A stretch of DNA of 34,203 nt from Alphaproteobacteria bacterium (GTDB lineage: Bacteria; Patescibacteriota; Microgenomatia; UBA8517). Location of the stretch: positions 1 through 34,203 of the forward strand of contig DATJGY010000054.1 of the NCBI GenBank assembly GCA_035494495.1. Reading direction: 5' to 3'. Shown piece by piece: positions 1,107 to 18,926 of the stretch. Under the pieces are notes generated by a model that was not told the origin of the DNA, did no database searches, and was given only the letters and a program-made list of their open reading frames with translations. The position numbers and the translations under genes are program-made. Position 1 is the stretch's first letter; every line of letters begins with the position of its first letter.

Positions 1107-2837
1107 TTAATCCAGTTTAATTTGTAAATTCCAAAAGTGAGAGTATAAACTTTCTTTGTTTTTCAATAGTTCTTCATGAGTTCCAATTTCTTTTATTCTC
1201 CCATGTTCCATAACTACGATTTTATCAGCTCGCATAATAGTTGATAAACGATGCGCAATTATAATAGTAGTTTTATTTTTTCTTGCACGCCAGAAAGCAT
1301 CTTGAATTAACTTTTCAGATTCACTGTCCAAATGACTTGTTGCCTCGTCAAAAATAACAATGTCGGGATTACTCAAAATCATGCGCGCAATTGCTAACCT
1401 TTGTTTTTGGCCGCCGGAAAGTTTAACTCCGCGTTCACCAACTTCAGTCTCGTATTTTTTTGGCAAACTTTGTATAAAGTCATCAATATTTGCGAGTTTT
1501 GCAGCGGATTTAATATCTGAAAAATTTGGTTTATCTTTTCCGTACCCAATGTTATATGCAATAGTATTATTAAACAAAATTGGTTCTTGCGGAACAACAC
1601 CAATGAAACTTCTCAAATCACTTTTTGTGAAATCTCGAATATCAATACCGTCAATCAAAATATGGCCTGACGACAGGTCAAAGAAACGCATAAGTAATTT
1701 TACGAGTGTAGTTTTTCCTGATCCACTTCTGCCAACAAGAGCAACTGATTCACCTTTTTTAATTTTAAGTGAAATTTCTTTAATAGTATTTTTAGCTCTT
1801 TCTTTGTAGGCAAAAGAAATATCATTAAAATTAATTTCTCCAGCAACATCATCAATTTTAATTGGATGTTCTGGATCTTTAACTTCAATTTCATAGTCCA
1901 GTAGTCCAAAATATTTTTCAATATCAGCATAATTTTTAGAAATATCTTTAAAGCTCCATGTTAAATCCCAAAGTCGAGGAATGAAGTTATTAATAAAAGC
2001 CGTGACCAAAACAAAATCTCCAATATTTATTTTTCCAGATGCCGCGGCCTGTAAACTGAAAAATAAAATTGCAAAAACGCCAAGATTAATAATACTGCCA
2101 ATTGTTAAATCAACAACTCGGAAAGAATTCGCGAAATCCCAAAGAGCTTTTTTCCAATCTGTAAATTTGGTTTCAAGTCTATTTTGTTCATAATTTTCTT
2201 TAGCAAAAAGTTTTACAGTTTCATAATTAATCATGTTGTCTGTAATTACAGAAGAGATATTATCTTCCTGATTATTAAATTCAATTCTTTTAGCTAAGTT
2301 CGTTTGAAGTAAAAATTTGGCTGCAAGCGATGTCAAAATCATTGAGATAATAGCGGCAACAGTAAGTTTAATGTCGACAGTTGAGAAGAAATAAAACATG
2401 ATAATCATGCCTGTGACAGTTTCCAAAATCCTATGGTGAAGAACGTCGAAAATATTAAAAAATGCAGAGTCGCCGCGTTTGAAAATACTAATTAAACTTC
2501 CAGTACTTTTGTTGGAATGAAAAACAAAATCTAAATCTTGAACTTGTTTAAAAACTTTTGACCTTAGATTAGCTGCAGCATCAATTACATTAAAGTCTCC
2601 TGCGACATTGGTCAAAATATTAAAAATCAACCTTACTATACGAACTCCAGTGTAGATAACCAAAATCCAAATCAACTTTTGGTAATTATTATTGGGAATC
2701 TCGTCAATAAATAATTTGTAAAAATAGGGAGTTAAGTCACCTAAGATTGTAGTAACGATCACTAAAACTATAAAACCAGCAAAAGCCAATTTTTTCTGAG
2801 CAGCAAAGTGGTAAAAAGTTTTTAGAATTTGGAACAT
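1107..2837 (-). CDS. ABC exporter, fused permease/ATPase (MsbA/multidrug type)
   Basis: Walker [10 protein letters not shown], signature LSGGQKQR and Walker [10 protein letters not shown] are present, with an N-terminal multi-TM domain. There is no N-terminal C39 peptidase domain. Confidence 0.9.
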
Positions 2838-2862: not shown

Positions 2863-2891
2863 TGCTATAATACACATACTTTCTTTATTTA
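2863..2891 (+). promoter_or_regulatory. promoter region for the 7TM/ATP-grasp operon
   Basis: An extended -10 TGcTATAAT lies at 2863-2871. A second -10-like TATTTA at 2886-2891 sits 6 nt before ATG 2898. No SD is visible. Confidence 0.4.
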
Positions 2892-2897
2892 AATCCC

Positions 2898-3683
2898 ATG
2901 CGCAAAATTTTTGTTGTCTTCTTATCTTTAATGGTTTTGGGAATTTGCCTTTTTACGCCTATTGCTGCTTTGGCCCAAAGCCCAGAAAGTTTGCTACATG
3001 GCCAGCAAGTTACCTCAGTTTGGCCATTCAATCCACTTAAATACGCCATTCGTGGGGCAGTAGCCTCAGGAGTTCCAGCCAATACAATAGTACTTCTGCT
3101 TCTTTTGCCAATTATCGCTTTTGTCATAGCTTTTGCCAGAAATGTTGTTGGAATCAGAGGTTTCGGAATTTTCTTGCCCGCCGCACTATCTGTAGTTTTT
3201 GTTGCCACAGGCCCAATTATTGGTATTGGCTTATTTTTAGTAATTGTTTTGGTTTCTACACTAGTTCGTATAGTCCTGAGAAAACTCAAAATTAAACTTC
3301 AGTATTTGCCTCGTATGGCTTTTATTCTTTGGGCAGTGGTAGTCGCGGTTCTCTCAATTTTATTTTTGGCTCCCGTTTTGAAATATCAAGCACTTTCCAA
3401 TGTTTCTATCTTTGCCGTATTAATTCTCATTTTACTTGCTGAAGATTTTATAAGAGTACAATTAGGGAAGAGTATTAAAACTGCTTTAAATTTGACTGCA
3501 GAAACACTTATTTTGTCCTTAGTTTCGTACTTTTTTATGACTCTCAAAGTTTTGCAAAATTATGTTTTATTGAATCCTGAAATCTCTCTTTTAGCCGTTG
3601 GAGCACTTGATATTTTACTCGCTAAATATTCTGGCCTCAGATTAATGGAATTTTACAGATTCAGAAAGCTCATTGCTACTTAA
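2898..3683 (+). CDS. signal peptide + 7-TM membrane protein, resembles the 7TM module that partners ATP-grasp ligases (7TM_transglut-like, without the transglutaminase domain)
   Basis: N-terminal signal-like MRKIFVVFLSLMVLGICLFTPIAALA, then seven hydrophobic spans. Motifs GIRGFGIFLPAAL and the C-terminal GLRLMEFYRFRK match my memory of PF14402. It lies directly upstream of an alpha-L-glutamate-ligase-like gene. Confidence 0.6.
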   Translation: MRKIFVVFLSLMVLGICLFTPIAALAQSPESLLHGQQVTSVWPFNPLKYAIRGAVASGVPANTIVLLLLLPIIAFVIAFARNVVGIRGFGIFLPAALSVVFVATGPIIGIGLFLVIVLVSTLVRIVLRKLKIKLQYLPRMAFILWAVVVAVLSILFLAPVLKYQALSNVSIFAVLILILLAEDFIRVQLGKSIKTALNLTAETLILSLVSYFFMTLKVLQNYVLLNPEISLLAVGALDILLAKYSGLRLMEFYRFRKLIAT

Positions 3684-3705
3684 CTATTGATCTACTGATC
3701 TTTCT

Positions 3706-5022
3706 ATGAAATTATCAAATATTCTTGGCCTCAATGCTCGTACTCAATTGTTTACCTACAAATATAATACTCGTCGTGGCAGAAATATAGCCAATTCAAA
3801 AATCCAAACAGCTAGAATCCTAAAATCGGCAGGTGTATTGCATCCCAAAATTTTTGCAAAATTTAAAGATCCAAGCAATGTTTTTGATTTTGATTGGCAA
3901 TCTCTCCCTGATAAATTTGCCCTGAAACCTTCCCGAGGATTCGGTGGCGAAGGCATTATTGTTGCCAAGAAAAAATTAAAAGATGGTTCATGGTTAACTA
4001 CTCAAAAAGAAAGAATTACAGCTGATGATTTGAAACTTCATACTTTAGACATTTTGGAAGGCGCTTATTCTATGGGAAATGTTCCTGATGTAGCTTTTAT
4101 TCAAGATTATGTCGGCCGCCACAAAGCTTTTAGGCGTTGGGCATATCGAGGCACGCCTGATATCCGCATTATTATTTTTAATAAAGTTCCCATTATGGCC
4201 ATGCTCCGGCTTCCTACAAAAGAATCGGGAGGACGAGCTAATTTGCATCAAGGAGCTCTTGGAGTTGGAGTTGATATTGCAACTGGAATTACGACACGAG
4301 CTATTTGGAATGACCAACAAATAGTTTTTAAACCTGGGACAACTAAGAAACTCCGAGGTATAAAAATACCCAACTGGACAAGTATTTTAGAAACCGCAGT
4401 GAACGCCCAAATAGCCTCAGGGCTTGGATATATTGGTGTTGATATGGTTTTAGATCCTGAAAAAGGTCCAATGGTTTTGGAATTGAATGCCCAGCCTGGA
4501 TTAGGAATTCAACTGGCTAACATGGAAGGCCTTAAATCTCGGCTTGACCGGGTTGATGACTTGGAGGTAAAAGATGCCGAGCATGGAGTTAAAATTGCCA
4601 AAGCCTTATTTGCGGGGAGATTTGCCAGTAGAGTGAATCTTGAGGAAGGTATTAAAACGATTAAAGCAGTTGAAAAAGTTAAAGTTTTGTCTAGCCTTGG
4701 CAAAAAGGTTGAAGTTTTGGCTAAGATCGATACTGGTGCTTGGAGCAGTGCGATTGATGCCGATTTAGCCCGTGAATTGGGAATTTTCACAAAAAGCAAA
4801 GTTTTATTTAAAAAGAAAAAATTAAGCGCATTAGGTGAAGAGGAGAGGCCGGTTATTCCGATGACTTTTTGGTTAGCTGGGAATAAAATCTCAACAAAAG
4901 TAACGGTGGCGGATAGAAGCGATTTGAGATATCAAGTGTTAATAGGTAGGATTGATTTGAATGGTTTTTTGGTTAGCCCAGAAATTGATCAAGAAAATCT
5001 TAGAGAAGCTAAATGGAACTAA
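3706..5022 (+). CDS. alpha-L-glutamate-ligase-like ATP-grasp enzyme fused to a C-terminal RimB/retropepsin-like peptidase domain
   Basis: ATP-grasp motifs: ALKPSRGFGGEGIIV, DIRIIIF, GRANLHQGALGVGVD and GVDMVLDPEKGPMVLELNAQPG. C-terminal peptidase motifs: AKIDTGAWSS (DTGA at nt 4729-4740) and DRSDLRYQVLIGRIDLNGFLVSP, typical of the PF05618 family. Confidence 0.75.
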   Translation: MKLSNILGLNARTQLFTYKYNTRRGRNIANSKIQTARILKSAGVLHPKIFAKFKDPSNVFDFDWQSLPDKFALKPSRGFGGEGIIVAKKKLKDGSWLTTQKERITADDLKLHTLDILEGAYSMGNVPDVAFIQDYVGRHKAFRRWAYRGTPDIRIIIFNKVPIMAMLRLPTKESGGRANLHQGALGVGVDIATGITTRAIWNDQQIVFKPGTTKKLRGIKIPNWTSILETAVNAQIASGLGYIGVDMVLDPEKGPMVLELNAQPGLGIQLANMEGLKSRLDRVDDLEVKDAEHGVKIAKALFAGRFASRVNLEEGIKTIKAVEKVKVLSSLGKKVEVLAKIDTGAWSSAIDADLARELGIFTKSKVLFKKKKLSALGEEERPVIPMTFWLAGNKISTKVTVADRSDLRYQVLIGRIDLNGFLVSPEIDQENLREAKWN

Positions 5023-5023
5023 A

Positions 5024-5914
5024 ATGAAAAAAATATTAATTTTAACAAGCGGTAAAAAAAGCAAACTCAGATCTTTTAAATTGTCTCTGCGAGATCTAAA
5101 AATTGATCTAACCACAGCCTCGTTTGATGATATTTATTTTGATTCAAATAGTCGAGATTTGATGCTGAAAGGGGAAATCAAACTAACTGATTTTAAAGTA
5201 ATTTATTTTAGATTGGTAGGAAAAAGTTTAGAAACTGCCAGTTTGGTTGCTGAATATGCTAAGAAAAAATGGATTAAAATTATCGACAAAATATACACTA
5301 AATCCCAAGTTTTCCCAATAACTCAAAGTAAGGCTTTGGAGATGAAAGCACTTGCTGATGCTAAAGTTTCCATTCCAAAGACGTTTTTTGGATCAGTTGC
5401 AGAAATTACTAAAAAAGGGCCTACAATGTTTAATTTCCCATTTGTTATTAAAAGCACTTCCGGCAGAAAAGGAAGAGAAGTTTATAGCCCGCAAAATATT
5501 AAAGAACTTCGTGAATTATCAAAAGTTTTAAGTGATGAAGAAAAATCAGGTAAAAGTTTTTTTGCTCAGGAATTCATTAATTGTACAAAAAGAATTAGAG
5601 TTCTAATCGTTGGTGGCAAAATACTTGGAGCAATTAGTCAAGGAACTAAATGGAGAAAAAGAGTTTCTGGCTATGTTCCGGACGAAAATGAGAAAAAAAT
5701 AGAAAAATTTGGGATGAGCAAGATCATTGAAAAGTTGTCATTAGCCGCTTTTTACGCAGTTGGAATTGACATTGCCGGAATTGATATTTTGATTGACGAA
5801 GTAACCGGCAAATATTTGGTGATCGAGGTAAATGCAGCTCCATCTTGGAAATTGATTAAAAAATATTGCAAGATTAATGTTGAATATGAAATCCTTAAAT
5901 TTGTATCAAAATAA
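5024..5914 (+). CDS. RimK-type ATP-grasp ligase paralog 1
   Basis: ATG 5024 lies 1 nt after the upstream stop. Motifs: FPFVIKSTSGRKGREVY, AQEFINCTKRIRVLIVGGKILGAI and GIDILIDEVTGKYLVIEVNAAPS. Confidence 0.7.
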   Translation: MKKILILTSGKKSKLRSFKLSLRDLKIDLTTASFDDIYFDSNSRDLMLKGEIKLTDFKVIYFRLVGKSLETASLVAEYAKKKWIKIIDKIYTKSQVFPITQSKALEMKALADAKVSIPKTFFGSVAEITKKGPTMFNFPFVIKSTSGRKGREVYSPQNIKELRELSKVLSDEEKSGKSFFAQEFINCTKRIRVLIVGGKILGAISQGTKWRKRVSGYVPDENEKKIEKFGMSKIIEKLSLAAFYAVGIDIAGIDILIDEVTGKYLVIEVNAAPSWKLIKKYCKINVEYEILKFVSK

Positions 5915-6488
5915 TTTCAAAAAATTTGGAGTTGACCATAAATCTCTTTTGTGGAAAACGCGTGGCGCGGCCCATCAGAGATTTAGACAATTTTGGAAAG
6001 AAATAAACTTTGACAACAAAAAAGTTTTGGATATTGGTTGTGGTTTTGGTGAGTTTGGAAAGTTTTTGTTAAAGAGATATAAGAATGTTGATTATACGGG
6101 GATTGATATTAATCCAGAATTTATCGCAGCAGCGTCGAAATTAGTTTTGGGAGGAAGATTTGAGGTTGCAGATTTCAATAAATTAGATAGTAAATATCAG
6201 GTTGTGATTGCATCAGGGGTCTTAAATTCGAACACAGAAGGCGACAATTTGGAACACAGAAAAAATGCAATCCAAAAAATGTTTGATCTAACTTCACATG
6301 TTTTGGCTTTTAATATGTTGGGTGGTCACCCAGCTCCAAAAAACAAAAAGGACAGTAATGTTTGGTATGTAGATAGTTTGGAGATTTTGGAATTTTGTAT
6401 GACGTTAACTTCACGAGTAATTCTGCGACAAAATTATCATTCAAAAGATTTTACAATTTTTTTGTACAAAGGGAGGAAAGAGGTATAA
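5877..6488 (+). CDS. class I SAM-dependent methyltransferase
   Basis: Motif I VLDIGCGFGEFG, followed by YTGIDIN and VIASGVL. The start could be 5877 or 5886. It overlaps the upstream gene's 3' end. Confidence 0.8.
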   Translation: MLNMKSLNLYQNNFKKFGVDHKSLLWKTRGAAHQRFRQFWKEINFDNKKVLDIGCGFGEFGKFLLKRYKNVDYTGIDINPEFIAAASKLVLGGRFEVADFNKLDSKYQVVIASGVLNSNTEGDNLEHRKNAIQKMFDLTSHVLAFNMLGGHPAPKNKKDSNVWYVDSLEILEFCMTLTSRVILRQNYHSKDFTIFLYKGRKEV

Positions 6489-6496
6489 TACAACAT

Positions 6497-7072
6497 ATGG
6501 ATACAGAACAAGAAAATTACAACCACAATCTGATCGAAGTTGGCGAGTGGTTTGGTGATATGGAAAAAACTGGGGAAGTTAGAAAAATTGATCAGGTCAC
6601 ATTAAATATAACTTTCGATAGTTTAGGTGGTTCACTGGAGATTAAAGAAGAGGAAGAAAAGTCTCTTAAAGAATACACAAATAAAGCCAGTAAAGAAGGA
6701 ATGATTGCAATTTGGGGAGAATCGAGAATGAAAGATTTTAATAATTTTTGTAAGAGTTGGATAGTCAATTTTGAAAATACTGATGGTAATAAAGAACTCC
6801 CAAAGTTAGACCAATCAGGCAAAAAAAATTCCGGAATGAAACAGTTTTTTCATGAAGTAACTGCTTACGCCTATGGAATTATGGATGAAGAAACATTTGG
6901 TCTTTTTACAGAAACTCGAATTGAAAATGGAAAGTTATGGCAAGAAGGCAAAAAAGATCAAAGAGAAAAGTTAGAAACTCCAAGTTCTAAAGGTGAAAAA
7001 ATATTAATTAGTTCAATTCCGCCTGGATTTATTCCGGATTTTTGGAATTGGTTAAAAACTTCAAAAAAATAA
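6497..7072 (+). CDS. hypothetical acidic protein (191 aa), no recognisable family
   Basis: ATG 6497 lies 8 nt after the methyltransferase stop. Same strand, embedded between ligase genes. No motif recognised. Confidence 0.5.
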   Translation: MDTEQENYNHNLIEVGEWFGDMEKTGEVRKIDQVTLNITFDSLGGSLEIKEEEEKSLKEYTNKASKEGMIAIWGESRMKDFNNFCKSWIVNFENTDGNKELPKLDQSGKKNSGMKQFFHEVTAYAYGIMDEETFGLFTETRIENGKLWQEGKKDQREKLETPSSKGEKILISSIPPGFIPDFWNWLKTSKK

Positions 7073-7074
7073 AA

Positions 7075-7974
7075 TTGAAAAAAATATTAATCCTTGCTGG
7101 GCAGCGAAATGAAAACAAAGATAAATTTATTGAATATCTTACCGAATATTTTCGTGATAAAAATATAGAAATTGATTTGGATATTTTTTCCAATGTTTCT
7201 GTTTTGTTAAATCAAAATAAAGTTGAGATGTTTGTAGGAGACAAAGACATTCGTGATTTTGATTTAGTGTACTTTCGTTCCACAAAAGGTTTCCAAGCTC
7301 TAGCTAAAACCATGGCCACAATTTTGGATTTTTTAGAAATAAAATATATTGATAAAGTTTGGGGAAAAGCTGCTGCGGTGGGGGACAAACTCACATCTTT
7401 TGCTAGGTTAACCACACAAAAATTGCCCGTTATCCCAACTCTTTTTTGCAATGTAAGTAATAAAAAAAAGATACAAGATTTTGCCAGTGAGGTTAATTAT
7501 CCTCTCATTGCCAAAGATTTGGTGGCGCAAAGATTGGAAGGAATATATGTTATCCATTCGATTAATGACATCAATAAATTGCCCGAAGTTAAAGAAAGTG
7601 GTGCAATTGTAAATTATTTATTTCAAAAATTTATTGACATAAAAGCAGAATATAGATTAGTAGTTTTGGGAGATACAGTTCAAGTAACTCATACAAAAGT
7701 TGCTAGAAATTATTCCGGGCATAAAGTTCATCATTTGGATGAAAACAGTACAATTGAATTTTTGGATTCAAATATAATGGATGAAGTAAATAAAATAGCA
7801 GTTAACGGAGCAAAAGCCTTGGATCTTAATATTGCAGGTGTTGATATCTGTATCGAAAAAAGTACCAATAAACCTTGGATAATTGAAGTTAATCGTGGGC
7901 CGGGAATAGATTACGATACTACTTTCTCTCCCGAAATGTCAGAATTCGCCAAATACTTGGAAAAAATTGTATGA
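7075..7974 (+). CDS. RimK-type ATP-grasp ligase paralog 2 (glycine-rich loop degenerate)
   Basis: TTG 7075 gives an N-terminus (M)KKILILAG parallel to paralog 1 (MKKILILTSG). TTG 7042 is an alternative start. Motifs: YRLVVLGDTV and GVDICIEKSTNKPWIIEVNRGPG. The loop YPLIAKDLVAQRLEG lacks the usual GxG. Confidence 0.6.
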   Translation: MKKILILAGQRNENKDKFIEYLTEYFRDKNIEIDLDIFSNVSVLLNQNKVEMFVGDKDIRDFDLVYFRSTKGFQALAKTMATILDFLEIKYIDKVWGKAAAVGDKLTSFARLTTQKLPVIPTLFCNVSNKKKIQDFASEVNYPLIAKDLVAQRLEGIYVIHSINDINKLPEVKESGAIVNYLFQKFIDIKAEYRLVVLGDTVQVTHTKVARNYSGHKVHHLDENSTIEFLDSNIMDEVNKIAVNGAKALDLNIAGVDICIEKSTNKPWIIEVNRGPGIDYDTTFSPEMSEFAKYLEKIV

Positions 7975-8762
7975 CTTACGATTTAGTAATTGTAACCACC
8001 AGCCCTAAAGCTTACGCTCCACAACGAATTAAAGAAGAATTAACAAAGAAGAATTTGTCCTGCAAAGTTTTAAAATATGAAGATGATATTCCTAACGCAA
8101 AACATATTTTCTTTAGAAGTTTCGGAGAAAATGGGAAATATGTTGATCTAATCAAAAAATTAAATAGCCCGAAAGTCATTAATTATAAGTCGTTTAAAAT
8201 TTGGCCAAAGTTAGATAAACTCACTCAATATTTAGAATTGCAAAAAGCTAAAATTCCAGTAGTTGAAACCTCTTTGGCTCCGAGAAATGATTTTCCATTT
8301 ATTGCAAAAGTAAGTAGTAGTAGTCAGGGGCGGGGAGTTGAAAAAATAACTAACGACGAAGATCTTAAAAATTTTGTAAAAAAGCATGCTGGTGAAAAAG
8401 TTTTTTCTGGAAAGATCCTTTTTCAACCATTTTTAACAGCCGGAGAAGATCTCAGAATAATTGTTATTAAAAATAAAGTTTTAGGAGCAATGAAACGTAT
8501 TGCCAGAAAAGGAAAATATCTAACTAATTTTTCGCAAGGTGGAAGAGTAGAAAATTTTAAACTAAATAATGATATTGTCAGTATTGCTTTAGCGGCTGCT
8601 AGCCATTTCAAATTGGATTATTGTGGAGTAGATTTAATGCAGGACAATGGTGGAAATTGGAAGGTTTTAGAGGTAAATAGAGCTTGTCAATTCAAAGGAT
8701 TTGAAAAAGCAACTAATATTAATATTGCCAACTTAGTGATCGAATACTTATTATCTGAATAA
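7971..8762 (+). CDS. RimK-type ATP-grasp ligase paralog 3 (most canonical)
   Basis: ATGA overlap with the upstream gene. Motifs: FPFIAKVSSSSQGRGVEKI, DLRIIVIKNKVLGAMKR, TNFSQGG and GVDLMQDNGGNWKVLEVNR. Confidence 0.75.
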   Translation: MTYDLVIVTTSPKAYAPQRIKEELTKKNLSCKVLKYEDDIPNAKHIFFRSFGENGKYVDLIKKLNSPKVINYKSFKIWPKLDKLTQYLELQKAKIPVVETSLAPRNDFPFIAKVSSSSQGRGVEKITNDEDLKNFVKKHAGEKVFSGKILFQPFLTAGEDLRIIVIKNKVLGAMKRIARKGKYLTNFSQGGRVENFKLNNDIVSIALAAASHFKLDYCGVDLMQDNGGNWKVLEVNRACQFKGFEKATNINIANLVIEYLLSE

Positions 8763-8779
8763 CTTAGTTACTCTTCGAA

Positions 8780-8806
8780 TCTCGTGAAATTAAATTTTTC
8801 ACGAGA
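8780..8806. terminator. bidirectional hairpin between the convergent ATP-grasp operon and rplL
   Basis: TCTCGTGAAA (8780-8789) and TTTCACGAGA (8797-8806) form a perfect 10-bp stem with a 7-nt loop, with T/A-rich flanks. Confidence 0.6.
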
Positions 8807-8827
8807 CCGAAGAAAATACAAAAAATC

Positions 8828-9217
8828 TTACTTCAACTCTACCTTTGCTCCTGCTGCTGTTAATTTTTCGCTAGCTGCTTTAGCATCTTCTGCTTTAGCA
8901 TCTTTCAAAATTTCAGCTGGAACTGTTTCGGTCATACCTTTGGCTTCCATAAGAGTTAAGTTTTGATTAATCTCACGAAGAGCTTTGATTACACCGATTT
9001 TGTTAGCTCCTGCATCAGTCATTACAACAGTTTTTGTACTGCTCTCATCACTTGCTGGAGCGGCGTCGCCGGCCGTAGCTGCAGCAGCGGAGGCTGGGGC
9101 GGCTACTGGCATTGCTGAGACTCCAAGTTTATCTTGAAGTGCAGTTACAAGTTCTGAAAGTTCTAGAACTGTAAGCTTTGTAACTTCTTCTACTAATTTT
9201 TCCACATTGTTTGCCAT
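8828..9217 (-). CDS. rplL: 50S ribosomal protein L7/L12
   Basis: Ala-rich hinge and a C-terminal domain ...KIGVIKALREI...LMEAK...AEDAKAASEKLTAAGAKVELK. SD AGGAGGTG lies upstream. Confidence 0.95.
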   Translation of the reverse strand: MANNVEKLVEEVTKLTVLELSELVTALQDKLGVSAMPVAAPASAAAATAGDAAPASDESSTKTVVMTDAGANKIGVIKALREINQNLTLMEAKGMTETVPAEILKDAKAEDAKAASEKLTAAGAKVELK

Positions 9218-9741
9218 TATTTTTCACCTCCTGCCTTGGTTTGAATTATATATACCAATTTTTGTAAATTGCCACTTAATGTTCCAGTTAAACCATACAT
9301 CGGGGATACTAAAGACCCAAGTAATTGACCCAAAAGTACCTCTTTTGATGGAAGGGTTGAAATCTTAGCTAGAGATTGGGAATCTTGAAAAACGCCGTCT
9401 ACAACTCCAACTTTAAATTTAGGTAATTCGAATTCTTTCGCAAATTTGCCCAAGATTTGAATTGGAGCAACTGCATCTTCGGTAGCAATTACGATTGCGG
9501 TTTGACCAGACAAGATTTCATCTGTTAGCACATCTTTGTCGATTTTTGCGGTTTCTGCGGCTCTTTTAAGAAGTGTATTTTTAACAACCACCATACGAGC
9601 TCCTATTGCGTTCAAACGATGTTTAAGCTCTTGTTGCGCTTGGACGTTAAGACCTGTGTAATTAACTAGTACGACAGATTTGGCGTCTTGAAGATCTTTT
9701 ACAAGATTATCTACTAATGTAACTTTTTGTAGTTTTTTCAT
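9217..9741 (-). CDS. rplJ: 50S ribosomal protein L10
   Basis: The translation is typical L10. TAATG overlap with rplL. SD GAGGAA. Confidence 0.95.
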   Translation of the reverse strand: MKKLQKVTLVDNLVKDLQDAKSVVLVNYTGLNVQAQQELKHRLNAIGARMVVVKNTLLKRAAETAKIDKDVLTDEILSGQTAIVIATEDAVAPIQILGKFAKEFELPKFKVGVVDGVFQDSQSLAKISTLPSKEVLLGQLLGSLVSPMYGLTGTLSGNLQKLVYIIQTKAGGEK

Positions 9742-9791
9742 ATTCCTCGTTGCGACTTACTTTTGATGCGCAATTTCTATGGACTGGGAGT

Positions 9792-9820
9792 ATTATATGT
9801 TACAATTATTTTATGGTCAA
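9792..9820 (-). promoter_or_regulatory. promoter for rplJ-rplL: TTGACC-17-TATAAT (minus strand)
   Basis: Reverse complement of 9815-9820 is TTGACC and of 9792-9797 is TATAAT, with a 17-nt spacer. This gives a leader of about 44 nt to ATG 9741. Confidence 0.5.
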
Positions 9821-9836
9821 GGAGGTGAATTTATAA

Positions 9837-10019
9837 ATGGCAGATAAATTAGGAGAAGTATCGCAATCGACTGTACAAGACAGTGAGAGTATACATCCTG
9901 GCGCTGTGGAGGAAGCAAAGTTAGTTAACAAGCATATAATAAAGGACGAATCAGCTGACAAGGAGGTTTTAAAAGGAACTCTTAAAAGGTTAATTAAGAG
10001 TATTGAAGAAACTGCATAA
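9837..10019 (+). CDS. possible small acidic protein (60 aa) antisense-embedded between rplJ and rplA
   Basis: Strong SD AAGGAGGTGA at 9820-9829, 7 nt before ATG 9837. No recognisable family and no clear promoter. Confidence 0.4.
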   Translation: MADKLGEVSQSTVQDSESIHPGAVEEAKLVNKHIIKDESADKEVLKGTLKRLIKSIEETA

Positions 10020-10020
10020 G

Positions 10021-10707
10021 TTATACAATCTGCAATTTTACTGAAGGGCTCATTGTAGACTTTACAAATCCTCGTACAATTTGTTTACTGCCTCCAAAAG
10101 CCTTCAAAATAGCTTCCAAATTGGCTTTAATTTCTTCATCTTTTTGACTAACTTTGCCCAAAACAGTGTGGATTAAAGGCGCTTCTTTTTCAGTTTTTAA
10201 TGTAACTTGTGATGCAGAAAAACTTTTAGCCTTTTTAGGATCGGGAATTAAAGTTCCATTTTTTGGATTTGGCATCATCCCGCGTGGGCCCAAAAGCTTA
10301 GCAAAAGGAACCAACTTAGGCATCATATCGGGAGTACTTACCAAAATATCAAAGTCAATTTTGCCTGCTTTCAATTTTTCAATTGTTTCATCAGATGCTA
10401 CCTCCACTTTTTTAACACGGCCAGCAGCATGGGGAAGAGTAATTTGAACCGAAGATCCTAACTTTTTCATTACCAAATGCAGCTCAATTGTGCCGTCAAA
10501 CTTGGAATACGATAACTCTTTAACCAATTTTATAGCTCCATCTATCGAATATGCTTTACCATTTTCAACTTTATTTCTTGATACTGCATATTTCTTGGAG
10601 CGAATTTTTTCCTCCACAACTTTATTAACTTTTCCTTGGCCCTCCGAAGCACTTTGCGCGGAGGGGGCTGCTGCTTCTTTGGCTGGTTTCATTTTCATTT
10701 TTCCCAT
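10021..10707 (-). CDS. rplA: 50S ribosomal protein L1 (with an N-terminal extension of about 25 aa)
   Basis: Typical L1 translation (KYAVSRNKVENGKAYSIDGAIKLVKE...LGPRGMMPNPK). Confidence 0.95.
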   Translation of the reverse strand: MGKMKMKPAKEAAAPSAQSASEGQGKVNKVVEEKIRSKKYAVSRNKVENGKAYSIDGAIKLVKELSYSKFDGTIELHLVMKKLGSSVQITLPHAAGRVKKVEVASDETIEKLKAGKIDFDILVSTPDMMPKLVPFAKLLGPRGMMPNPKNGTLIPDPKKAKSFSASQVTLKTEKEAPLIHTVLGKVSQKDEEIKANLEAILKAFGGSKQIVRGFVKSTMSPSVKLQIV

Positions 10708-10711
10708 GTTT

Positions 10712-11137
10712 TTAGTTTTCTACTTTTATTCCCATTGATCGGGCAGTGCCCTCAACAATTTTCATAGCTGCGTCAATATCTTTGGTATTTAAATCATCAA
10801 GTTTATCTGTGGCAATAGCTTTGACCTGCTCACGAGTCAAAGTTCCTGCAATTTCGCGTGGAGTTTTGCCAGATCCCTTTTCAATTCCCAGAGTTTTTTT
10901 AATCATGTCGGCAACTGGGGCTTTTTTAATAATGAAATCAAACGATCGATCTTCGTAAATTGTAATAACGGCAGGCACAACTTGGCCTTTCATATCTTTA
11001 GTTTTGTCGTTATATGCTTTGACAAAGTCCATGATAGCAACACCGTGTTGACCTAATGCAGTTCCAACTGGAGGAGCGGGAGTAGCCTCAGCGGCTTTTA
11101 AATTAATTTTAACTACTGTTTTTACCTTTTTTGCCAT
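10712..11137 (-). CDS. rplK: 50S ribosomal protein L11
   Basis: Typical L11 translation (PAPPVGTALGQHGV..., KTPREIAG...). Confidence 0.95.
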   Translation of the reverse strand: MAKKVKTVVKINLKAAEATPAPPVGTALGQHGVAIMDFVKAYNDKTKDMKGQVVPAVITIYEDRSFDFIIKKAPVADMIKKTLGIEKGSGKTPREIAGTLTREQVKAIATDKLDDLNTKDIDAAMKIVEGTARSMGIKVEN

Positions 11138-11301
11138 ATTTCGATTTTTTAAAATCTGCCTCAGAAAATTCCGAGGTGATGCAATTGTAACAAATTAGTT
11201 GAATATTTAAAAGGGGAATCTGTGGAGGTGTTACAGGGCAAGCGCTTCAATCATTTTTGTGTTTTTTTTATGATTGTTTTTATAAGCGCCTGCCTGTTTT
11301 T
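11138..11301 (-). promoter_or_regulatory. structured leader upstream of rplK (two hairpins)
   Basis: Composite hairpin at 11237-11294: GGCAAGCGCTT/AAGCGCCTGCC plus an inner CAATCAT/ATGATTG. The single mismatch becomes a G-U pair only on the minus-strand RNA. A second 7-bp hairpin lies at 11159-11176. No SD precedes the rplK ATG. Confidence 0.35.
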
Positions 11302-11403
11302 TTAATTCTTTTTGTCTTTACGTCCCCTGCGGATTAGGAGCGCTGCTCCTACCAAACAGATTGTTAATCCTGCAGTTATTATTACGGGAACCATTTGGTC
11401 CAT
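11302..11403 (-). CDS. small ORF, 33-aa single-TM peptide (MDQMVPVIITAGLTICLVGAALLIRRGRKDKKN)
   Basis: Hand-translated; below the ORF-track size cutoff. SD AGAGGAG lies 8 nt upstream of ATG 11403. Hydrophobic core followed by a basic tail. Confidence 0.4.
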   Translation of the reverse strand: MDQMVPVIITAGLTICLVGAALLIRRGRKDKKN

Positions 11404-11471
11404 TTTATTTACTCCTCTCTGAACGTTAGGATCCGTCGCAAATGACGGCTGGATATTTACTATCGGATATA

Positions 11472-11500
11472 AGTATATAGATATAGAGGCTAAAAGTCAA
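11472..11500 (-). promoter_or_regulatory. promoter TTGACT-17-TATACT (minus strand) just downstream of nusG
   Basis: Reverse complement of 11495-11500 is TTGACT and of 11472-11477 is TATACT. Confidence 0.5.
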
Positions 11501-11505
11501 ATAAT

Positions 11506-12117
11506 TTACACTTTTTGGATTTGTAAGAAGTCTAACTCAACCGGAGTCTCGCGGCCGAAGATTGAAACCAAAACTTTAACTTTACCTTTTTCCTCATCCA
11601 TTTCATGAATTGTACCCAAGAAGTCGGTGAATGGGCCGTCAACAATTTTAATAGCCTCGCCAACGCCAAATTTAGTTTTGTATCTCGGAGCTGGAGCTGC
11701 AACGAACTTTTGAATATTAGCAACTTCGACTTCAGAAAGAGGAGTTGGATTATTACCAGCGCCAACAAAGCCCGTGATACCTGCAGTTGTACGAACTGCA
11801 AGCCAAGTAGGATCATCTAAAATCATTTTAACAAGCAAATATCCAGGGAAAATCTTTTCTTTAACGGTAGCCTTTTTGCCACCGCGGATAATAACACGAT
11901 CTTGAGTTGGAACTAACATTTCAAAAATTTTACCTTGCAAATTCATGGTTTCAATTCTTTGATGAAGTGTATCCATAACACGCATTTCATGGCCTGAAGA
12001 AGTGTGAACTACATACCATTTTGCTCGTGGATCTTCTGTTTGAGCAACAACAATATGGCCAGGAATTTTCTTTTTTCCTGTTCCTCTTTCTGAAACTTGT
12101 ATTTGATCGTTATCCAT
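11506..12117 (-). CDS. nusG: transcription termination/antitermination factor NusG
   Basis: NGN domain (KWYVVHTSSGHE) and KOW domain (GEAIKIVDGPFTDFLGTI). Position between secE and rplK. Confidence 0.95.
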   Translation of the reverse strand: MDNDQIQVSERGTGKKKIPGHIVVAQTEDPRAKWYVVHTSSGHEMRVMDTLHQRIETMNLQGKIFEMLVPTQDRVIIRGGKKATVKEKIFPGYLLVKMILDDPTWLAVRTTAGITGFVGAGNNPTPLSEVEVANIQKFVAAPAPRYKTKFGVGEAIKIVDGPFTDFLGTIHEMDEEKGKVKVLVSIFGRETPVELDFLQIQKV

Positions 12118-13736: not shown

Positions 13737-14743
13737 TGGCAAAGAAAATTGCACTCATTACAGGAATTACAGGCCAAGATGGAAGCTATTTAGCTGAACT
13801 TTTGCTTGAGAAGGGATATGAAGTTGCTGGAATTGTACGAAAAACTTCCAATGAAGCATATGCAAATATTGATCATATTCAAGATGAATTAAAATTATTC
13901 CAGGGTGATTTATTGGATCCTGTTTCTTTGCGCGAAATTATCCAGCGAGTAGCGCCCGATGAAGTTTACAATCTAGCTGCGCAATCTTCTCCTGCCGAAT
14001 CATTCAAACAACCAATTCACACAGCTGAAATCACTGCTATCGGAGCTCATCGCGTCCTTGATGCAACCTTAGATGTTAATCCCAAAGCAAAATTTTACCA
14101 AGCTTCAAGTTCAGAAATGTTTGGTTGGGTAAAAGAAATTCCACAAACTGAAGAGACGCCGTTTAATCCCGCAAATCCATATGCCGTAGCTAAACTTTAT
14201 GGCTACTGTATGACCAAGATTTATAGAGAAAGCTATAAAATGTTTGCAACAAACGGAATTTTGTTTAATCATGAGTCGCCTCGAAGACATTTAGTTTTTG
14301 TAACTCAAAAAGTAGCTTATGCCGCAGCCTGTGCCAAATTAGGTATAAAATCTTCCCAACATTTAAATGAAGAAGGGGAACCAGTTTACAAAAATGGCAA
14401 AGTTTCTCTTGGGAATTTAGAGGCTAAACGTGATTGGGGATTTGCTGGAGATTACGTTGAGGCAATGTGGCTAATGATGCAAGCTGAAAAGCCTGATGAT
14501 TTTGTTGTGGCGACAGGGGAAACTCATACTATAAAAGAACTTTGTGAAGAAGCTTTTTCCTACGTTGGTTTAAATTGGGAAGATCATGTAGTAGTTGATC
14601 CTAGATTTGTTCGCCCAACAGAAACCGGGCCATTGGTTGGGGATGCAACAAAAGCCAAAAAGATCTTAAATTGGGAACCTAAGACAAAATTTAAAGAATT
14701 GGTAGCGATGATGGTTGACTCGCATTTAGCACGACTCAAGTAA
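13736..14743 (+). CDS. gmd: GDP-mannose 4,6-dehydratase
   Basis: ALITGITGQDGSYLAELLLEKGYEV, the YAVAKLY catalytic motif and NHESPRR. ATG 13730 is an alternative start. Confidence 0.9.
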   Translation: MAKKIALITGITGQDGSYLAELLLEKGYEVAGIVRKTSNEAYANIDHIQDELKLFQGDLLDPVSLREIIQRVAPDEVYNLAAQSSPAESFKQPIHTAEITAIGAHRVLDATLDVNPKAKFYQASSSEMFGWVKEIPQTEETPFNPANPYAVAKLYGYCMTKIYRESYKMFATNGILFNHESPRRHLVFVTQKVAYAAACAKLGIKSSQHLNEEGEPVYKNGKVSLGNLEAKRDWGFAGDYVEAMWLMMQAEKPDDFVVATGETHTIKELCEEAFSYVGLNWEDHVVVDPRFVRPTETGPLVGDATKAKKILNWEPKTKFKELVAMMVDSHLARLK

Positions 14744-15148
14744 TATTTTTACAATCTCAGAGCTTGAAGCAACTTTTATTTTTTTAATTTCTATCACTTT
14801 AGCATCAACTTCTTTTGCGTGATCTTTTTTCTTGTCTAAAATTGGATCGCCCTGAGTCACTGCAATAAAACTTGGTTTTAAATTTTTGACTAAATTCCTA
14901 TAATCTTCATCTTTCATATCCTCACCCAAAATTAAAACCTGGTCAACAAATTGTAGAGATTCCAGAATTTCTTTCCGTTGATGTTGATTATGAATTGGAC
15001 GAGTAGAACCTTTTAGTTTTTTAATATTTGCGTCTGATTCTAAAGCTACAATTAGATAATTTCCAAGTTTTTTGGCTTCTTTTAAAAAATGCACATGACC
15101 AAAGTGGAGAATGTCAAAGCAACCACCAACAAGAACTGTTTTTTTCAT
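14726..15148 (-). CDS. cytidylyl/adenylyltransferase-family protein (HxGH nucleotidyltransferase, TagD/RfaE-II/RibL-like)
   Basis: GGCFDILHFGHVHFLKEAKKLG. The start is trimmed to ATG 15148 because the longer ORF would run through tRNA-Trp. Confidence 0.75.
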   Translation of the reverse strand: MKKTVLVGGCFDILHFGHVHFLKEAKKLGNYLIVALESDANIKKLKGSTRPIHNQHQRKEILESLQFVDQVLILGEDMKDEDYRNLVKNLKPSFIAVTQGDPILDKKKDHAKEVDAKVIEIKKIKVASSSEIVKILLESC

Positions 15149-15151
15149 GAG

Positions 15152-15222
15152 CAGGTCCAGAGGGAATCGAACCCCCATTAGAGGATTTGGAGTCCCCTGG
15201 TCTACCATTAACCTATGGACCT
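15152..15222 (-). tRNA. tRNA-Trp (anticodon CCA), no encoded CCA tail
   Basis: Hand-folded cloverleaf: acceptor AGGTCCA/TGGACCT, anticodon loop CTCCAAA, T-loop TTCGATT. Confidence 0.9.
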
Positions 15223-17130: not shown

Positions 17131-17132
17131 TG

Positions 17133-18832: not shown

Positions 18833-18917
18833 GCTGAGGTGGCAGAGCGGTCAAATGCATGAGACTGTAGATCTCACGTTCGAAAGAACTACGGGGGTTC
18901 GAATCCCTCCCTCAGCA
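18833..18917 (+). tRNA. tRNA-Tyr (anticodon GUA), long variable arm
   Basis: Acceptor GCTGAGG/CCTCAGC, anticodon loop CTGTAGA, 16-nt variable arm, T-loop TTCGAAT. Confidence 0.9.
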
Positions 18918-18926
18918 CAAAGAAAT

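What the first reader, a model, noticed from the sequence alone, without database searches (positions are those of the whole stretch)
2898..8762. Seven-gene amidoligase island: 7TM protein, four ATP-grasp ligases, a methyltransferase and an orphan protein
Seen in the sequence: seven co-directional ORFs are packed with junctions of +22, +1, -38, +8, +2 and -4 nt. They are bounded by a divergent promoter region (2838-2897) and a 10-bp-stem bidirectional terminator (8780-8806). Four of the ORFs carry clear ATP-grasp signatures: the K-x-x-G-x-G-x-GV loop, D/E-hRhhhh, N-x-x-x-GG or NLHQGA, and GVDh...hEVN. Established knowledge: RimK adds poly-Glu tails to ribosomal protein S6. The triad of a 7TM membrane protein, an alpha-L-glutamate-ligase-like ATP-grasp enzyme and a retropepsin-like (PF05618/RimB-type) peptidase is a conserved gene neighbourhood that, as far as I recall, has not been experimentally characterised. 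As I recall, it was flagged in the comparative-genomic survey of amidoligases by Iyer, Abhiman, Burroughs and Aravind (2009) as a predicted peptide-synthesis or peptide-tagging system. Inference: here the triad is expanded by three additional RimK-type ligases (one with a degenerate glycine loop), a class I SAM methyltransferase and a 191-aa orphan protein. That suggests stepwise, ribosome-independent assembly, and possibly methylation, of a short peptide or of a poly-amino-acid tail on a protein or envelope acceptor. The divergent MsbA-type ABC exporter (1107-2837) is a possible export route. The island is unexpected in an apparently reduced genome. It converges on rplL exactly where rpoB/rpoC normally follow.
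Basis: partly seen in the sequence, partly recalled or inferred. Interest (0 to 1): 0.8.

Follow-up and report, generated by a model that had tools for sequence, protein, structure and literature searches.

The report
Membrane-tethered peptide-ligase operon, variable cassette
This is a real seven-gene operon from an uncultured Microgenomates (CPR) bacterium: a compact relative of the recently studied Pseudomonas rloABC stress-tolerance system, followed by a swappable set of extra peptide-bond-forming enzymes whose product is still unknown.

Summary
Seven co-directional genes lie at 2898-8762, with junctions of +22, +1, -38, +8, +2 and -4 nt, an extended -10 box upstream and a strong hairpin downstream.

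- **Core genes.** Gene 1 is a signal-peptide 7TM protein (PF14402) without the inactive transglutaminase domain of RloB. Gene 2 is an RloC-type ATP-grasp ligase (PF14397) fused at its C-terminus to an RloA/RimB-type retropepsin with an invariant DTGA. The "triad" is therefore two genes, and the protease is predicted to be cytoplasmic.
- **Cassette.** Genes 3, 6 and 7 are RimK-family ligases of three clades, gene 4 is a SAM methyltransferase and gene 5 belongs to a small unnamed family.
- **Conservation.** In about 65 related loci the 7TM-fusion pair is almost invariant (52/53) and as conserved as ribosomal proteins L1, L10 and L12. The genes between it and a convergent rplL form a variable cassette: 20 compositions in 49 loci, with this window's the largest.
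- **Weaker points.** The ABC exporter is not a consistent partner (10/38). The triad is no longer uncharacterised, because rloABC was studied in 2025.
- **Best reading.** Membrane-tethered, ribosome-independent synthesis and trimming of an acidic peptide or tail, diversified by the cassette.

It is a new variant of a known kind, and the product is unknown.

The parts
2863..2871 (+). Extended -10 promoter-like box (TGcTATAAT), 26 nt upstream of the g1 start, in the 60-nt divergent intergenic region
   Evidence: Read directly from the sequence. Not picked up by the generic -35/-10 scan. Function is inferred.
2898..3683 (+). g1: signal peptide plus 7TM membrane protein, homologous to the C-terminal half of RloB and lacking the inactive transglutaminase domain
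   Evidence: PF14402 at 88.9 bits (cut-off 25). NCBIfam RloB matches only model positions 312-506 of 508. 30% identity to residues 310-501 of Legionella RloB, E 6e-17. Hydropathy shows a signal peptide, about 7 TM segments and a basic C-terminal tail. Homologues are 64-87% identical. The AF2 model has pLDDT 68 and no PDB fold match.
3706..4575 (+). g2 N-terminal domain (aa 1-290): RloC-type ATP-grasp ligase (ATPgrasp_ST / alpha-L-glutamate-ligase-like)
   Evidence: PF14397 at 223 bits. TIGR02291 at 275 bits, below its 314 cut-off. 41% identity to Legionella RloC, E 2e-69. The AF2 model's best PDB fold match is RimK 7qys, E 5e-10. The K74, G-loop, GGRANLHQGA and D246...E259-x-N261 motifs are invariant.
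4657..4983 (+). g2 C-terminal domain (aa 318-426): RloA/RimB-type retropepsin-like aspartic peptidase, fused in cis behind a conserved helical linker
   Evidence: PF05618 at 30.1 bits (cut-off 27). A profile of the domain hits the RloA crystal structures 9G58 (1.6e-8) and 9G59 (1e-7), plus 2PMA, Ddi1 and ApRick. hhalign to Legionella RloA gives 96.6% probability. D342-T343-G344-A345 is invariant in 27 homologues. Net charge is +4 to +15 across those homologues.
5024..5914 (+). g3: RimK-family ATP-grasp ligase, clade A; lacks the N-x-x-x-GG motif
   Evidence: PF08443 at 71 bits. TIGR00768 at 115 bits, below its 143 cut-off. Orthologues occur in L001, L002, L003, L009, L018, L019 and others.
5877..6488 (+). 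g4: class I SAM-dependent methyltransferase of unknown substrate; usually follows a clade A ligase
   Evidence: PF13847, PF13649 and PF08242 at about 43 bits each. No NCBIfam model reaches its cut-off. Co-occurrence is shown.
6497..7072 (+). g5: 191-aa acidic protein of a small unnamed family found only inside this cassette
   Evidence: No Pfam, NCBIfam or PDB hit. Homologues are P0122 (53% identity), L007, L019 (hhalign 98%), L027, L035, L046 and L068, all lying between the fusion gene and rplL.
7075..7974 (+). g6: RimK-family ATP-grasp ligase, clade B (the most widespread accessory clade). This sub-branch has lost the glycine loop and R-x-N...GG but keeps the Mg-binding D...E-V-N
   Evidence: PF08443 at 45.7 bits. 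Start at TTG 7075. Clade B is present in 8 of 9 genome loci and in most metagenome loci.
7971..8762 (+). g7: RimK-family ATP-grasp ligase, clade C, with the full canonical motif set; the closest of the set to true RimK
   Evidence: PF08443 at 101.7 bits. TIGR00768 at 129 bits, below its 143 cut-off. PRK10446 (the S6 ligase model) at 65 bits against a 331 cut-off. PDB sequence match to Pseudomonas RimK 7qys at 5e-15.
8772..8813 (.). Hairpin between the convergent g7 and rplL genes; a likely bidirectional transcription stop without a U-tract
   Evidence: Folding energy -20.7 kcal/mol, z -6.07, matched or beaten by 0 of 200 shuffles. Not called by the terminator scan because no T-run follows it.
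1107..2837 (-). Divergent MsbA-type ABC exporter; a possible but unproven partner
   Evidence: PF00664 plus PF00005. TIGR02203 at 392 bits, below its 602 cut-off. Adjacent in 10 of 38 metagenome loci and in most, but not all, genome loci.

Best explanation
The island is the Microgenomates (CPR/Patescibacteria) version of the Rlo/Rim type of amidoligase system. It has a fixed two-gene core followed by an exchangeable cassette.

**Core (inferred mechanism).** The RloC-type ATP-grasp domain of g2 docks on the cytoplasmic C-terminal tail of the 7TM protein g1. Using ATP, and without ribosomes, it makes an acidic peptide or peptide tail, most likely rich in glutamate. The retropepsin domain fused to the same polypeptide dimerises and trims or releases that chain in the cytoplasm, as RimB does for RimK. 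The 7TM protein then passes the product to the cell envelope or couples it there.

**Cassette (inferred).** The RimK-family ligases g3, g6 and g7, the methyltransferase g4 and the protein g5 extend, branch or cap the chain. Different lineages would therefore make different products.

**What is shown:** domain identities, catalytic motifs, the fusion architectures, gene order, and the pattern of conservation and variability.

**What is inferred:** the chemistry, the acceptor and the destination of the product.
For: **Homology to a canonical triad**
- The g2 N-terminal domain is 41% identical to Legionella RloC.
- g1 is 30% identical to the 7TM half of RloB.
- The g2 C-terminal domain matches the RloA crystal structures 9G58 and 9G59.

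**Genetics and biochemistry of the Pseudomonas system**
- RloA cleaves runs of at least 8 Glu.
- Deleting rloB or rloC suppresses the defects of the rloA mutants. This implies that RloB and RloC make something that the protease must remove (PMC12239564).

**Signs of an active enzyme acting on an anionic substrate**
- The DTGA motif is invariant, and the retropepsin domain is basic (+4 to +15) in 27 homologues.
- g2 has the full ATP-grasp motif set, and its best structural match is the poly-alpha-glutamate synthetase RimK.

**Domain fusions that point to one membrane complex with the ligase on the inside**
- 7TM fused to the ligase (P0253).
- TM anchor, retropepsin, 7TM and ligase in one protein (P0261).
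- Ligase-retropepsin-MATCAP fusion beside a PKD-7TM protein (L022).
- Ligase-retropepsin fused to a second ATP-grasp domain (L023).

**Conservation pattern**
- The 7TM gene lies directly upstream of the fusion gene in 52 of 53 loci.
- g1 and g2 are 60-86% identical across loci in which L1, L10 and L12 are 46-84% identical.
- There are 20 cassette compositions in 49 loci, and 48 of 49 carry at least one accessory ATP-grasp gene.
- Junctions are tight or overlapping, with no internal terminator-like hairpin of comparable strength.
Against: - No product, acceptor or amino-acid specificity is known for any member, Pseudomonas RloC included.
- TIGR02291 scores below its curated cut-off (275 against 314 bits).
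- The protease is predicted to be on the opposite side of the membrane from RloA. The Pseudomonas logic of making the product inside and cleaving it outside therefore cannot be transferred directly.
- The 7TM model is of low confidence (pLDDT 68) and has no structural analogue. A translocase role is a guess.
- Two of the three accessory ligases here (g3 and g6) lack canonical motifs and may be inactive or have a different chemistry.
- No export partner is consistently linked (ABC exporter in 10 of 38 loci).
Confidence: 0.5

Rival explanations
1. Peptidoglycan-precursor decoration. The ligases add amino acids to the stem peptide or build the interpeptide bridge on lipid-linked precursors at the membrane. 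The 7TM protein acts as scaffold, the protease edits the chain, and the cassette explains lineage-specific bridge chemistry. This is a specific sub-case of the envelope hypothesis.
For: - The Pseudomonas rlo mutants show changes in cell shape, ampicillin sensitivity and hypo-osmotic survival, which the authors link to peptidoglycan homeostasis.
- ATP-grasp ligases are known to build peptidoglycan cross-bridges; the D-aspartate ligase of Enterococcus is an example (my own knowledge).
- The organism has MreB and a PBP2-type transpeptidase.
Against: - No Mur, Fem or lipid II gene is linked to the island in any locus examined.
- The FemAB_like hit is below threshold.
- RloA prefers runs of at least 8 Glu, which is unlike any known cross-bridge.
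- MreB and the PBP lie 18-20 kb away and are not linked.
Confidence: 0.15
2. Ribosomal-protein tailing, as with RimK and RimB. The ligases add C-terminal amino-acid tails to S6 or another ribosomal protein, the retropepsin trims them, and the position next to rplJ-rplL reflects this role.
For: - g7 is closest to true RimK (PDB 7qys at 5e-15; TIGR00768 at 129 bits).
- The fused protease is predicted to be cytoplasmic, like RimB (PMC12239564).
- Convergent rplL lies downstream in 39 of 49 loci.
Against: - The invariant partner of the core ligase is a 7TM membrane protein (52 of 53 loci), which a ribosome-modifying enzyme does not need.
- The orientation to rplL is convergent, with a strong hairpin between the genes, so they are not co-transcribed.
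- The whole secE-nusG-rplKAJL region is syntenic in the clade. The rplL adjacency disappears in all 10 loci whose g2 identity is 55% or lower, while the 7TM pairing persists.
- L12 ends in ...VELK, not Glu-Glu.
- The S6-ligase model scores 65 bits against a 331 cut-off.
- g7 is present in only a minority of loci.
Confidence: 0.1
3. The accessory ligases are known pathway enzymes: LysX/ArgX amino-group-carrier ligases, MptN or CofF cofactor glutamyl ligases, a cyanophycin-like polymer synthetase, or graspetide (RiPP) maturases.
For: Weak partial hits to LysX (90 bits), MptN (104), CofF (72), cyanophycin synthetase (43) and MvdC/MvdD (15-19). Structural matches to ArgX/LysX and PsnB/MdnC appear behind RimK.
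Against: - Every score is far below its curated cut-off, which range from 275 to 850 bits.
- There is no LysW-like carrier, no lysine or arginine biosynthesis genes, and no precursor-peptide ORF. The intergenic gaps are 22 nt or less.
- The cassette composition varies too freely for a fixed pathway.
Confidence: 0.05

Closest known systems
rloABC operon of Pseudomonas aeruginosa (Lormand et al., mBio 2025, PMC12239564); the same triad occurs on Legionella adelaidensis plasmid 5 (L020)
   Same: It has the same three modules: an RloC-type ATP-grasp ligase (41% identity), the 7TM module of RloB (30% identity) and an RloA-type retropepsin with DTG (profile E 1e-8 to the crystal structures). They are co-transcribed.
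   Different: - The 7TM protein has no inactive transglutaminase domain, only a signal peptide and a short linker.
- The retropepsin has no signal peptide and is fused behind the ligase, so it is predicted to be cytoplasmic rather than secreted.
- The gene order is 7TM then ligase-protease, instead of protease, 7TM, ligase.
- One to three (here three) extra RimK-family ligases follow, sometimes with a methyltransferase or g5.
- The host is a CPR bacterium, whereas the paper reports that 96% of RloB hits are from Proteobacteria.
RimK-RimB (with or without RimA) ribosomal protein S6 glutamylation system
   Same: A RimK-family ATP-grasp ligase works with a cytoplasmic retropepsin-like protease that trims poly-Glu. 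g7 resembles RimK most closely, and the g2 ligase model's best fold match is RimK.
   Different: - No gene reaches the RimK family or S6-ligase cut-offs.
- The protease is fused to an RloC-type ligase, not a RimK-type one.
- There is an obligatory 7TM partner.
- No S6 link has been shown.
Iyer, Abhiman, Burroughs and Aravind 2009 (Mol Biosyst 5:1636): predicted ATP-grasp / 7TM-inactive-transglutaminase / aspartyl-protease neighbourhood (source of PF14397, PF14402 and PF05618)
   Same: The Pfam families are the same, and so is the predicted theme of peptide synthesis or peptide tagging.
   Different: The paper could not be retrieved here, so I could not check whether it lists the CPR fusion or the multi-ligase cassette. 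The papers I could search do not mention CPR versions.
Variable cell-surface biosynthesis loci (O-antigen, capsule and teichoic-acid clusters). This is an analogy only.
   Same: Conserved flanking or core genes surround a cassette of modifying enzymes that differs between close relatives.
   Different: The enzymes are ATP-grasp amidoligases rather than glycosyltransferases. A surface location for the product is not shown.

Membership tests
Rlo system (rloABC) | RloC-type ATP-grasp ligase (PF14397 / TIGR02291) | tested here: met
   PF14397 at 223 bits against a 31.4 cut-off, and 41% identity to Legionella RloC at E 2e-69. Caveat: the NCBIfam model TIGR02291 scores 275 bits, below its curated 314 cut-off.
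Rlo system (rloABC) | [quoted passage not shown] | tested here: not met
   Only the 7TM half is present. PF14402 scores 88.9 bits. NF052267 scores 61 bits against a 900 cut-off and covers only model positions 312-506 of 508. All 120 best homologues are 233-337 aa and carry PF14402 only.
Rlo system (rloABC) | RloA: a retropepsin-like aspartic peptidase with a DTG active site | tested here: met
   PF05618 at 30.1 bits against a 27 cut-off. The domain profile hits 9G58 and 9G59 at 1.6e-8 and 1e-7. DTGA is invariant.
Rlo system (rloABC) | RloA carries a signal peptide and is secreted, which is the feature that separates it from RimB | tested here: not met
   The domain is residues 318-426 of g2, downstream of the ATP-grasp domain, with no signal peptide or TM segment.
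Rlo system (rloABC) | The three modules are encoded in one operon | tested here: met
   g1 and g2 are 22 nt apart on the same strand, and the pairing holds in 52 of 53 related loci.
Rlo system (rloABC) | A role in hypo-osmotic tolerance, cell shape or antibiotic tolerance | not testable with these tools
   This needs genetics in a cultivable host.
RimK / S6 glutamate ligase | Score above the RimK family cut-off (TIGR00768, 143.4 bits) or the S6-ligase cut-off (PRK10446, 331 bits) | tested here: not met
   g7 scores 129.4 and 64.9 bits, g3 114.9 and 29.7, g6 57.6 and 24.5. The Pfam RimK domain PF08443 is met for all three.
RimK / S6 glutamate ligase | A substrate S6 protein with a Glu-Glu C-terminus | not tested
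   rpsF is not in the window or in any fetched locus.
LysX/ArgX amino-group carrier system | LysX equivalog score, plus a LysW-type carrier and linked lysine/arginine biosynthesis genes | tested here: not met
   The best score is 90 bits against a 275.6 cut-off. No small carrier ORF and no biosynthetic genes are in the operon.
MptN / CofF cofactor glutamyl ligases | Equivalog score (350 / 300 bits) | tested here: not met
   The best scores are 103.9 and 72.4 bits.
Graspetide (RiPP) ATP-grasp maturases | Maturase equivalog score and an adjacent precursor-peptide gene | tested here: not met
   Scores are 15-29 bits against cut-offs of 230-475. There is no room for a precursor ORF, as junctions are 22 nt or less.

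The most novel reading that the evidence does not exclude
The variable ATP-grasp cassette downstream of an almost invariant 7TM/ligase-protease core would be a ribosome-independent "peptide serotype" locus. Each Microgenomates lineage would assemble its own short, possibly methylated, acidic peptide on the cell envelope (wall, lipid or surface protein). The 7TM protein would be a new kind of peptide translocase or coupling enzyme. The variation would be driven by interactions with hosts or phages, which matter greatly for episymbiotic CPR cells.
Probability: 0.2. Interest if true: 0.8.

Novelty: new variant of a known kind. Interest (0 to 1): 0.55.

Why it matters
The product and the acceptor of the Rlo system are unknown, even though the system controls osmotic survival, cell shape, biofilm formation and beta-lactam tolerance in Pseudomonas.

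The CPR version offers three things:
- **A minimal form of the system.** It is two genes, with the ligase and protease in one polypeptide and a 7TM protein stripped of its outer domain. Within the clade it is as conserved as ribosomal proteins L1, L10 and L12, in very small genomes, which argues for an important function.
- **Natural domain fusions.** These fix the membrane topology and the partnerships between the modules.
- **A natural combinatorial library of accessory ligases.** Products of different cassettes could be compared by mass spectrometry.

If the cassette does encode lineage-specific envelope peptides, that would be a new way for uncultivated, host-dependent bacteria to diversify their surface.

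Tried and rejected
- A single-sequence PDB search with g2 found nothing. A profile of the C-terminal domain was needed to reach the RloA structures.
- A Foldseek search with the 7TM model gave no meaningful match (best E 2.9), and the model is of low confidence.
- g5 gave no Pfam, NCBIfam or PDB match, either alone or as a 3- or 8-member profile.
- Iyer et al. 2009 (PMC3268129) is not held in the library, so what it says rests on my recollection and on the Pfam descriptions.
- Literature searches for CPR or Patescibacteria together with RimK or alpha-L-glutamate ligase found nothing relevant.
- The Klebsiella CfmP ATP-grasp paper concerns a different, TupA-like family. It was set aside.
- Horizontal transfer of the island was considered. 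The cassette (5001-9000) has a lower GC content (0.31-0.33) than g1/g2 and the ribosomal protein genes (0.36-0.40), but so does the ABC gene (0.32), so this is not diagnostic.
- The ABC exporter was rejected as an integral part, because it is adjacent in only 10 of 38 metagenome loci.
- Rfam and tRNA scans found no RNA element in the island.

Full report

Yes. The ORF list and the public gene calls for the source contig show seven co-directional genes between 2898 and 8762. The contig is a 58-kb JGI metagenome contig. Reading the junctions confirms +22, +1, -38, +8, +2 and -4 nt.

TTG at 7075 gives MKKILIL, the N-terminus shared by all orthologues. The public call uses TTG at 7042.

The 60-nt region shared with the divergent ABC gene holds a TGnTATAAT extended -10 box at 2863-2871. 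Between gene 7 and the convergent rplL there is a 16-bp interrupted hairpin at 8772-8813. Its folding energy is -20.7 kcal/mol, with z = -6.1. It has no U-tract, so the terminator scan did not call it.

**2. What the genes are**

- **g1** (2898-3683) has a signal peptide and about seven TM helices (PF14402, 88.9 bits). It matches only the C-terminal 7TM half of the NCBIfam RloB model. It therefore lacks the inactive transglutaminase domain.
- **g2** (3706-5022) is a fusion of two domains.
  - Residues 1-290 are an RloC-type ATP-grasp ligase (PF14397, 223 bits; TIGR02291, 275 bits, below its 314 cut-off). This domain is 41% identical to the RloC-type protein of a canonical Legionella triad.
  - Residues 318-426 are a retropepsin-like peptidase (PF05618). 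A profile of this domain hits the RloA crystal structures 9G58 and 9G59 at 1.6e-8 and 1e-7.
  - The DTGA motif is invariant in 27 homologues. The domain is basic in all of them, with net charge +4 to +15.
  - An AlphaFold model (pLDDT 77.5) has RimK as its best PDB match.
- **g3, g6 and g7** are RimK-family ligases (PF08443). They belong to three mutually distant clades, A, B and C, at 22-32% identity.
  - None reaches the curated cut-offs for RimK, the S6 ligase, LysX, MptN or CofF.
  - g7 has the full motif set.
  - g3 lacks N-x-x-x-GG.
  - g6 and its closest orthologues have lost both the glycine loop and R-x-N...GG, while other clade B members keep them.
- **g4** is a class I SAM methyltransferase of unknown substrate.
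- **g5** matches no Pfam, NCBIfam or PDB entry, but it is not an orphan. Seven homologues were found, at 24-53% identity, and every one lies inside the same cassette.

**3. Context in related genomes**

The NCBI label for this MAG is "Alphaproteobacteria". However, every homologue that carries an informative organism name is from Woesebacteria, Microgenomates or another Patescibacteria group (CPR).

The fusion protein has more than 5000 relatives. The best 120 are 425-450 aa long and 68-87% identical. The 7TM protein behaves the same way.

I examined 19 loci from genomes and assemblies, some of them duplicates of one another. I then examined 80 more from metagenomes. The results were:

- The 7TM gene sits directly upstream of the fusion gene in 52 of 53 loci.
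- g1 and g2 are 60-86% identical to the window across loci in which L1, L10 and L12 are 46-84% identical. They are somewhat less conserved than L11 and NusG (74-90%).
- Convergent rplL-rplJ follows in 39 of 49 evaluable loci. That is every locus whose g2 is at least 58% identical, and none of the ten at 55% or below. The whole secE-nusG-rplKAJL region is syntenic, so I read this as clade synteny rather than a functional link.
- The ABC exporter lies within 2.5 kb in only 10 of 38 loci.
- The genes between the fusion gene and rplL are highly variable. There are 20 different compositions in 49 loci, built from ligase clades A, B and C, a fourth clade D that is absent here, the methyltransferase, g5 and a 770-aa ATP-grasp protein.
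- Of those 49 loci, 48 have at least one accessory ligase (19 have one, 24 have two, 5 have three).
- The window's A-MT-g5-B-C is the largest cassette seen, and it is not repeated exactly. The nearest relatives carry A-MT-B-C (L018) and A-MT-g5-B (L019).

**4. Architectural variants in more distant relatives**

- 7TM fused to the ligase (P0253/L024), with a separate transglutaminase-core protein and a separate retropepsin next door.
- A TM anchor, retropepsin, 7TM and ligase in one protein (P0261). This places the protease outside the membrane and the ligase inside.
- Many proteins of about 790 aa combine the ligase, the retropepsin and a MATCAP-type metallocarboxypeptidase. In L022 one of these lies beside a PKD-7TM protein.
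- A ligase-retropepsin fused to a second ATP-grasp domain, with two more RimK-like genes nearby (L023).

These fusions argue that the modules work as one membrane-associated unit with the ligase on the cytoplasmic face. They also show that the side of the membrane on which the protease sits differs between lineages. In this window the protease is predicted to be on the inside.

**5. How it most likely works**

The only experimental anchor is the Pseudomonas rloABC study (PMC12239564). In that work RloA cleaves runs of at least 8 glutamates. Loss of all three RloA paralogues is lethal in low-osmolarity medium. Deleting rloB or rloC suppresses that lethality, so RloB and RloC make something that must be cleaved. 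RimB, the cytoplasmic homologue, trims the poly-Glu tail that RimK adds to S6.

Combining that study with the anatomy here, I propose the following. Confidence is about 0.5 for the general scheme and lower for the chemistry.

1. The g2 ligase, docked on the basic C-terminal tail of g1, makes an acidic, probably Glu-rich, peptide or tail in an ATP-dependent, ribosome-independent way.
2. The fused retropepsin dimer trims or releases that chain in the cytoplasm.
3. g1 hands the product to the envelope.
4. The cassette enzymes extend, branch or methylate it, which gives lineage-specific products.

Steps 1-4 are inference. The shown facts are the domain identities, the motifs, the fusions, the operon structure and the conservation pattern.

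**6. Rival explanations**

- **Peptidoglycan-precursor decoration.** This fits the Pseudomonas phenotypes and the weak FemAB-like hit in L015. No Mur or Fem genes are linked, however.
- **Ribosomal-protein tailing.** A cytoplasmic protease, the RimK-like g7 and the rplL neighbourhood favour it. The obligatory 7TM partner, the convergent orientation with a hairpin between the genes, and the loss of rplL adjacency in distant relatives all argue against it.
- **Known pathway ligases or RiPP maturases.** These are disfavoured by scores far below the cut-offs and by the absence of any carrier or precursor gene.

**7. Comparison with what is known, and novelty**

The closest known system is rloABC. 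This locus shares its three modules but fails two of its defining features: the transglutaminase domain of RloB and the secretion of RloA. It also adds a multi-ligase cassette. It resembles RimK-RimB in having a cytoplasmic protease, but it is not a member by score.

Its recollection of the 2009 comparative survey matches the Pfam descriptions, but I could not retrieve that paper. I found no literature on the CPR form.

I rate the locus as a new variant of a known kind. Interest is moderate (0.55). The locus itself is a well-conserved feature of the sampled Microgenomates/Woesebacteria relatives rather than an anomaly. The fusion topology, the ribosomal-protein-level conservation within this clade and the variable ligase cassette are new and testable leads to the unknown Rlo product.

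Noticed in passing
whole window (protein names): NCBI labels the proteins of this MAG "Alphaproteobacteria bacterium". Every homologue that carries an informative organism name, and the gene order, point to Woesebacteria/Microgenomates (CPR). The taxonomic label of the bin looks wrong.
   Followed up: partly
P0128, P0153 and about 40 other representatives; L022:4990-7377: Distant relatives of g2 are proteins of about 790 aa that fuse the ATP-grasp ligase, the retropepsin and a MATCAP-type (PF08014) metallocarboxypeptidase. That puts one ligase and two peptidases in a single chain, reminiscent of the tubulin tyrosination/detyrosination pair. In L022 the partner 7TM protein carries PKD domains instead of a transglutaminase domain.
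   Followed up: partly
L015:8308-10620 (also L016, L025, L067, L086-L088): In some loci the ligase cassette is replaced or joined by a protein of about 770 aa. It has an ATP-grasp_3 domain and a weak, sub-threshold FemAB_like match (E 1e-4).
   Followed up: partly
L013, L014 versus L019, relative to the window: g2 identity does not track ribosomal-protein identity. In L013 the ribosomal proteins are 79-89% identical but g2 is only 74%, and the cassette is B-D-B. In L019, L1, L10 and L12 are 63-76% identical (L11 is 89%) but g2 is 81%, and the cassette is A-MT-g5-B. This could mean that the core co-evolves with, or is exchanged together with, the cassette type.
   Followed up: no
window 2898-3683 versus homologues: The window's 7TM protein, at 261 aa, is among the shortest of the 120 best hits. 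It has lost most of the Pro/Ser/Thr/Ala-rich linker and the conserved DITQKTxETLGPLE motif that precedes TM1 in its relatives.
   Followed up: no
window 8828-12117 (-): The order secE-nusG-rplK-rplA-rplJ-rplL is present, but rpoB and rpoC do not follow rplL. No ORF longer than 657 aa exists in the window. The same break is conserved in related loci.
   Followed up: partly
L002/L010:7109-9064: In Woesebacteria GW2011_GWF1_31_35, four small genes including an AbiEii-type toxin are inserted between the ABC exporter and the 7TM gene.
   Followed up: no
L013-L016, L018, upstream of the island: A Peptidase_M32 carboxypeptidase recurs 3-5 kb upstream of the island. In L015 and L016 a Peptidase_S51 (cyanophycinase/dipeptidase E family) protein lies there as well. 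A 72-aa MerR/HTH_17 gene also recurs, and it is present in the window at 886-1104.
   Followed up: no
window 32444-33160 and 33164-33712: Two tandem dCTP-deaminase/dUTPase-like ORFs lie next to each other.
   Followed up: no
window 17130-18317, 18855-20060, 27734-28555: Three large ORFs of 395, 401 and 273 aa have no Pfam match.
   Followed up: no
window 14726-15208 (-) and 15151-15222 (-): The longest-ORF call for the cytidylyltransferase-like gene overlaps tRNA-Trp. The true start must be further downstream, and the public call is 140 aa.
   Followed up: no
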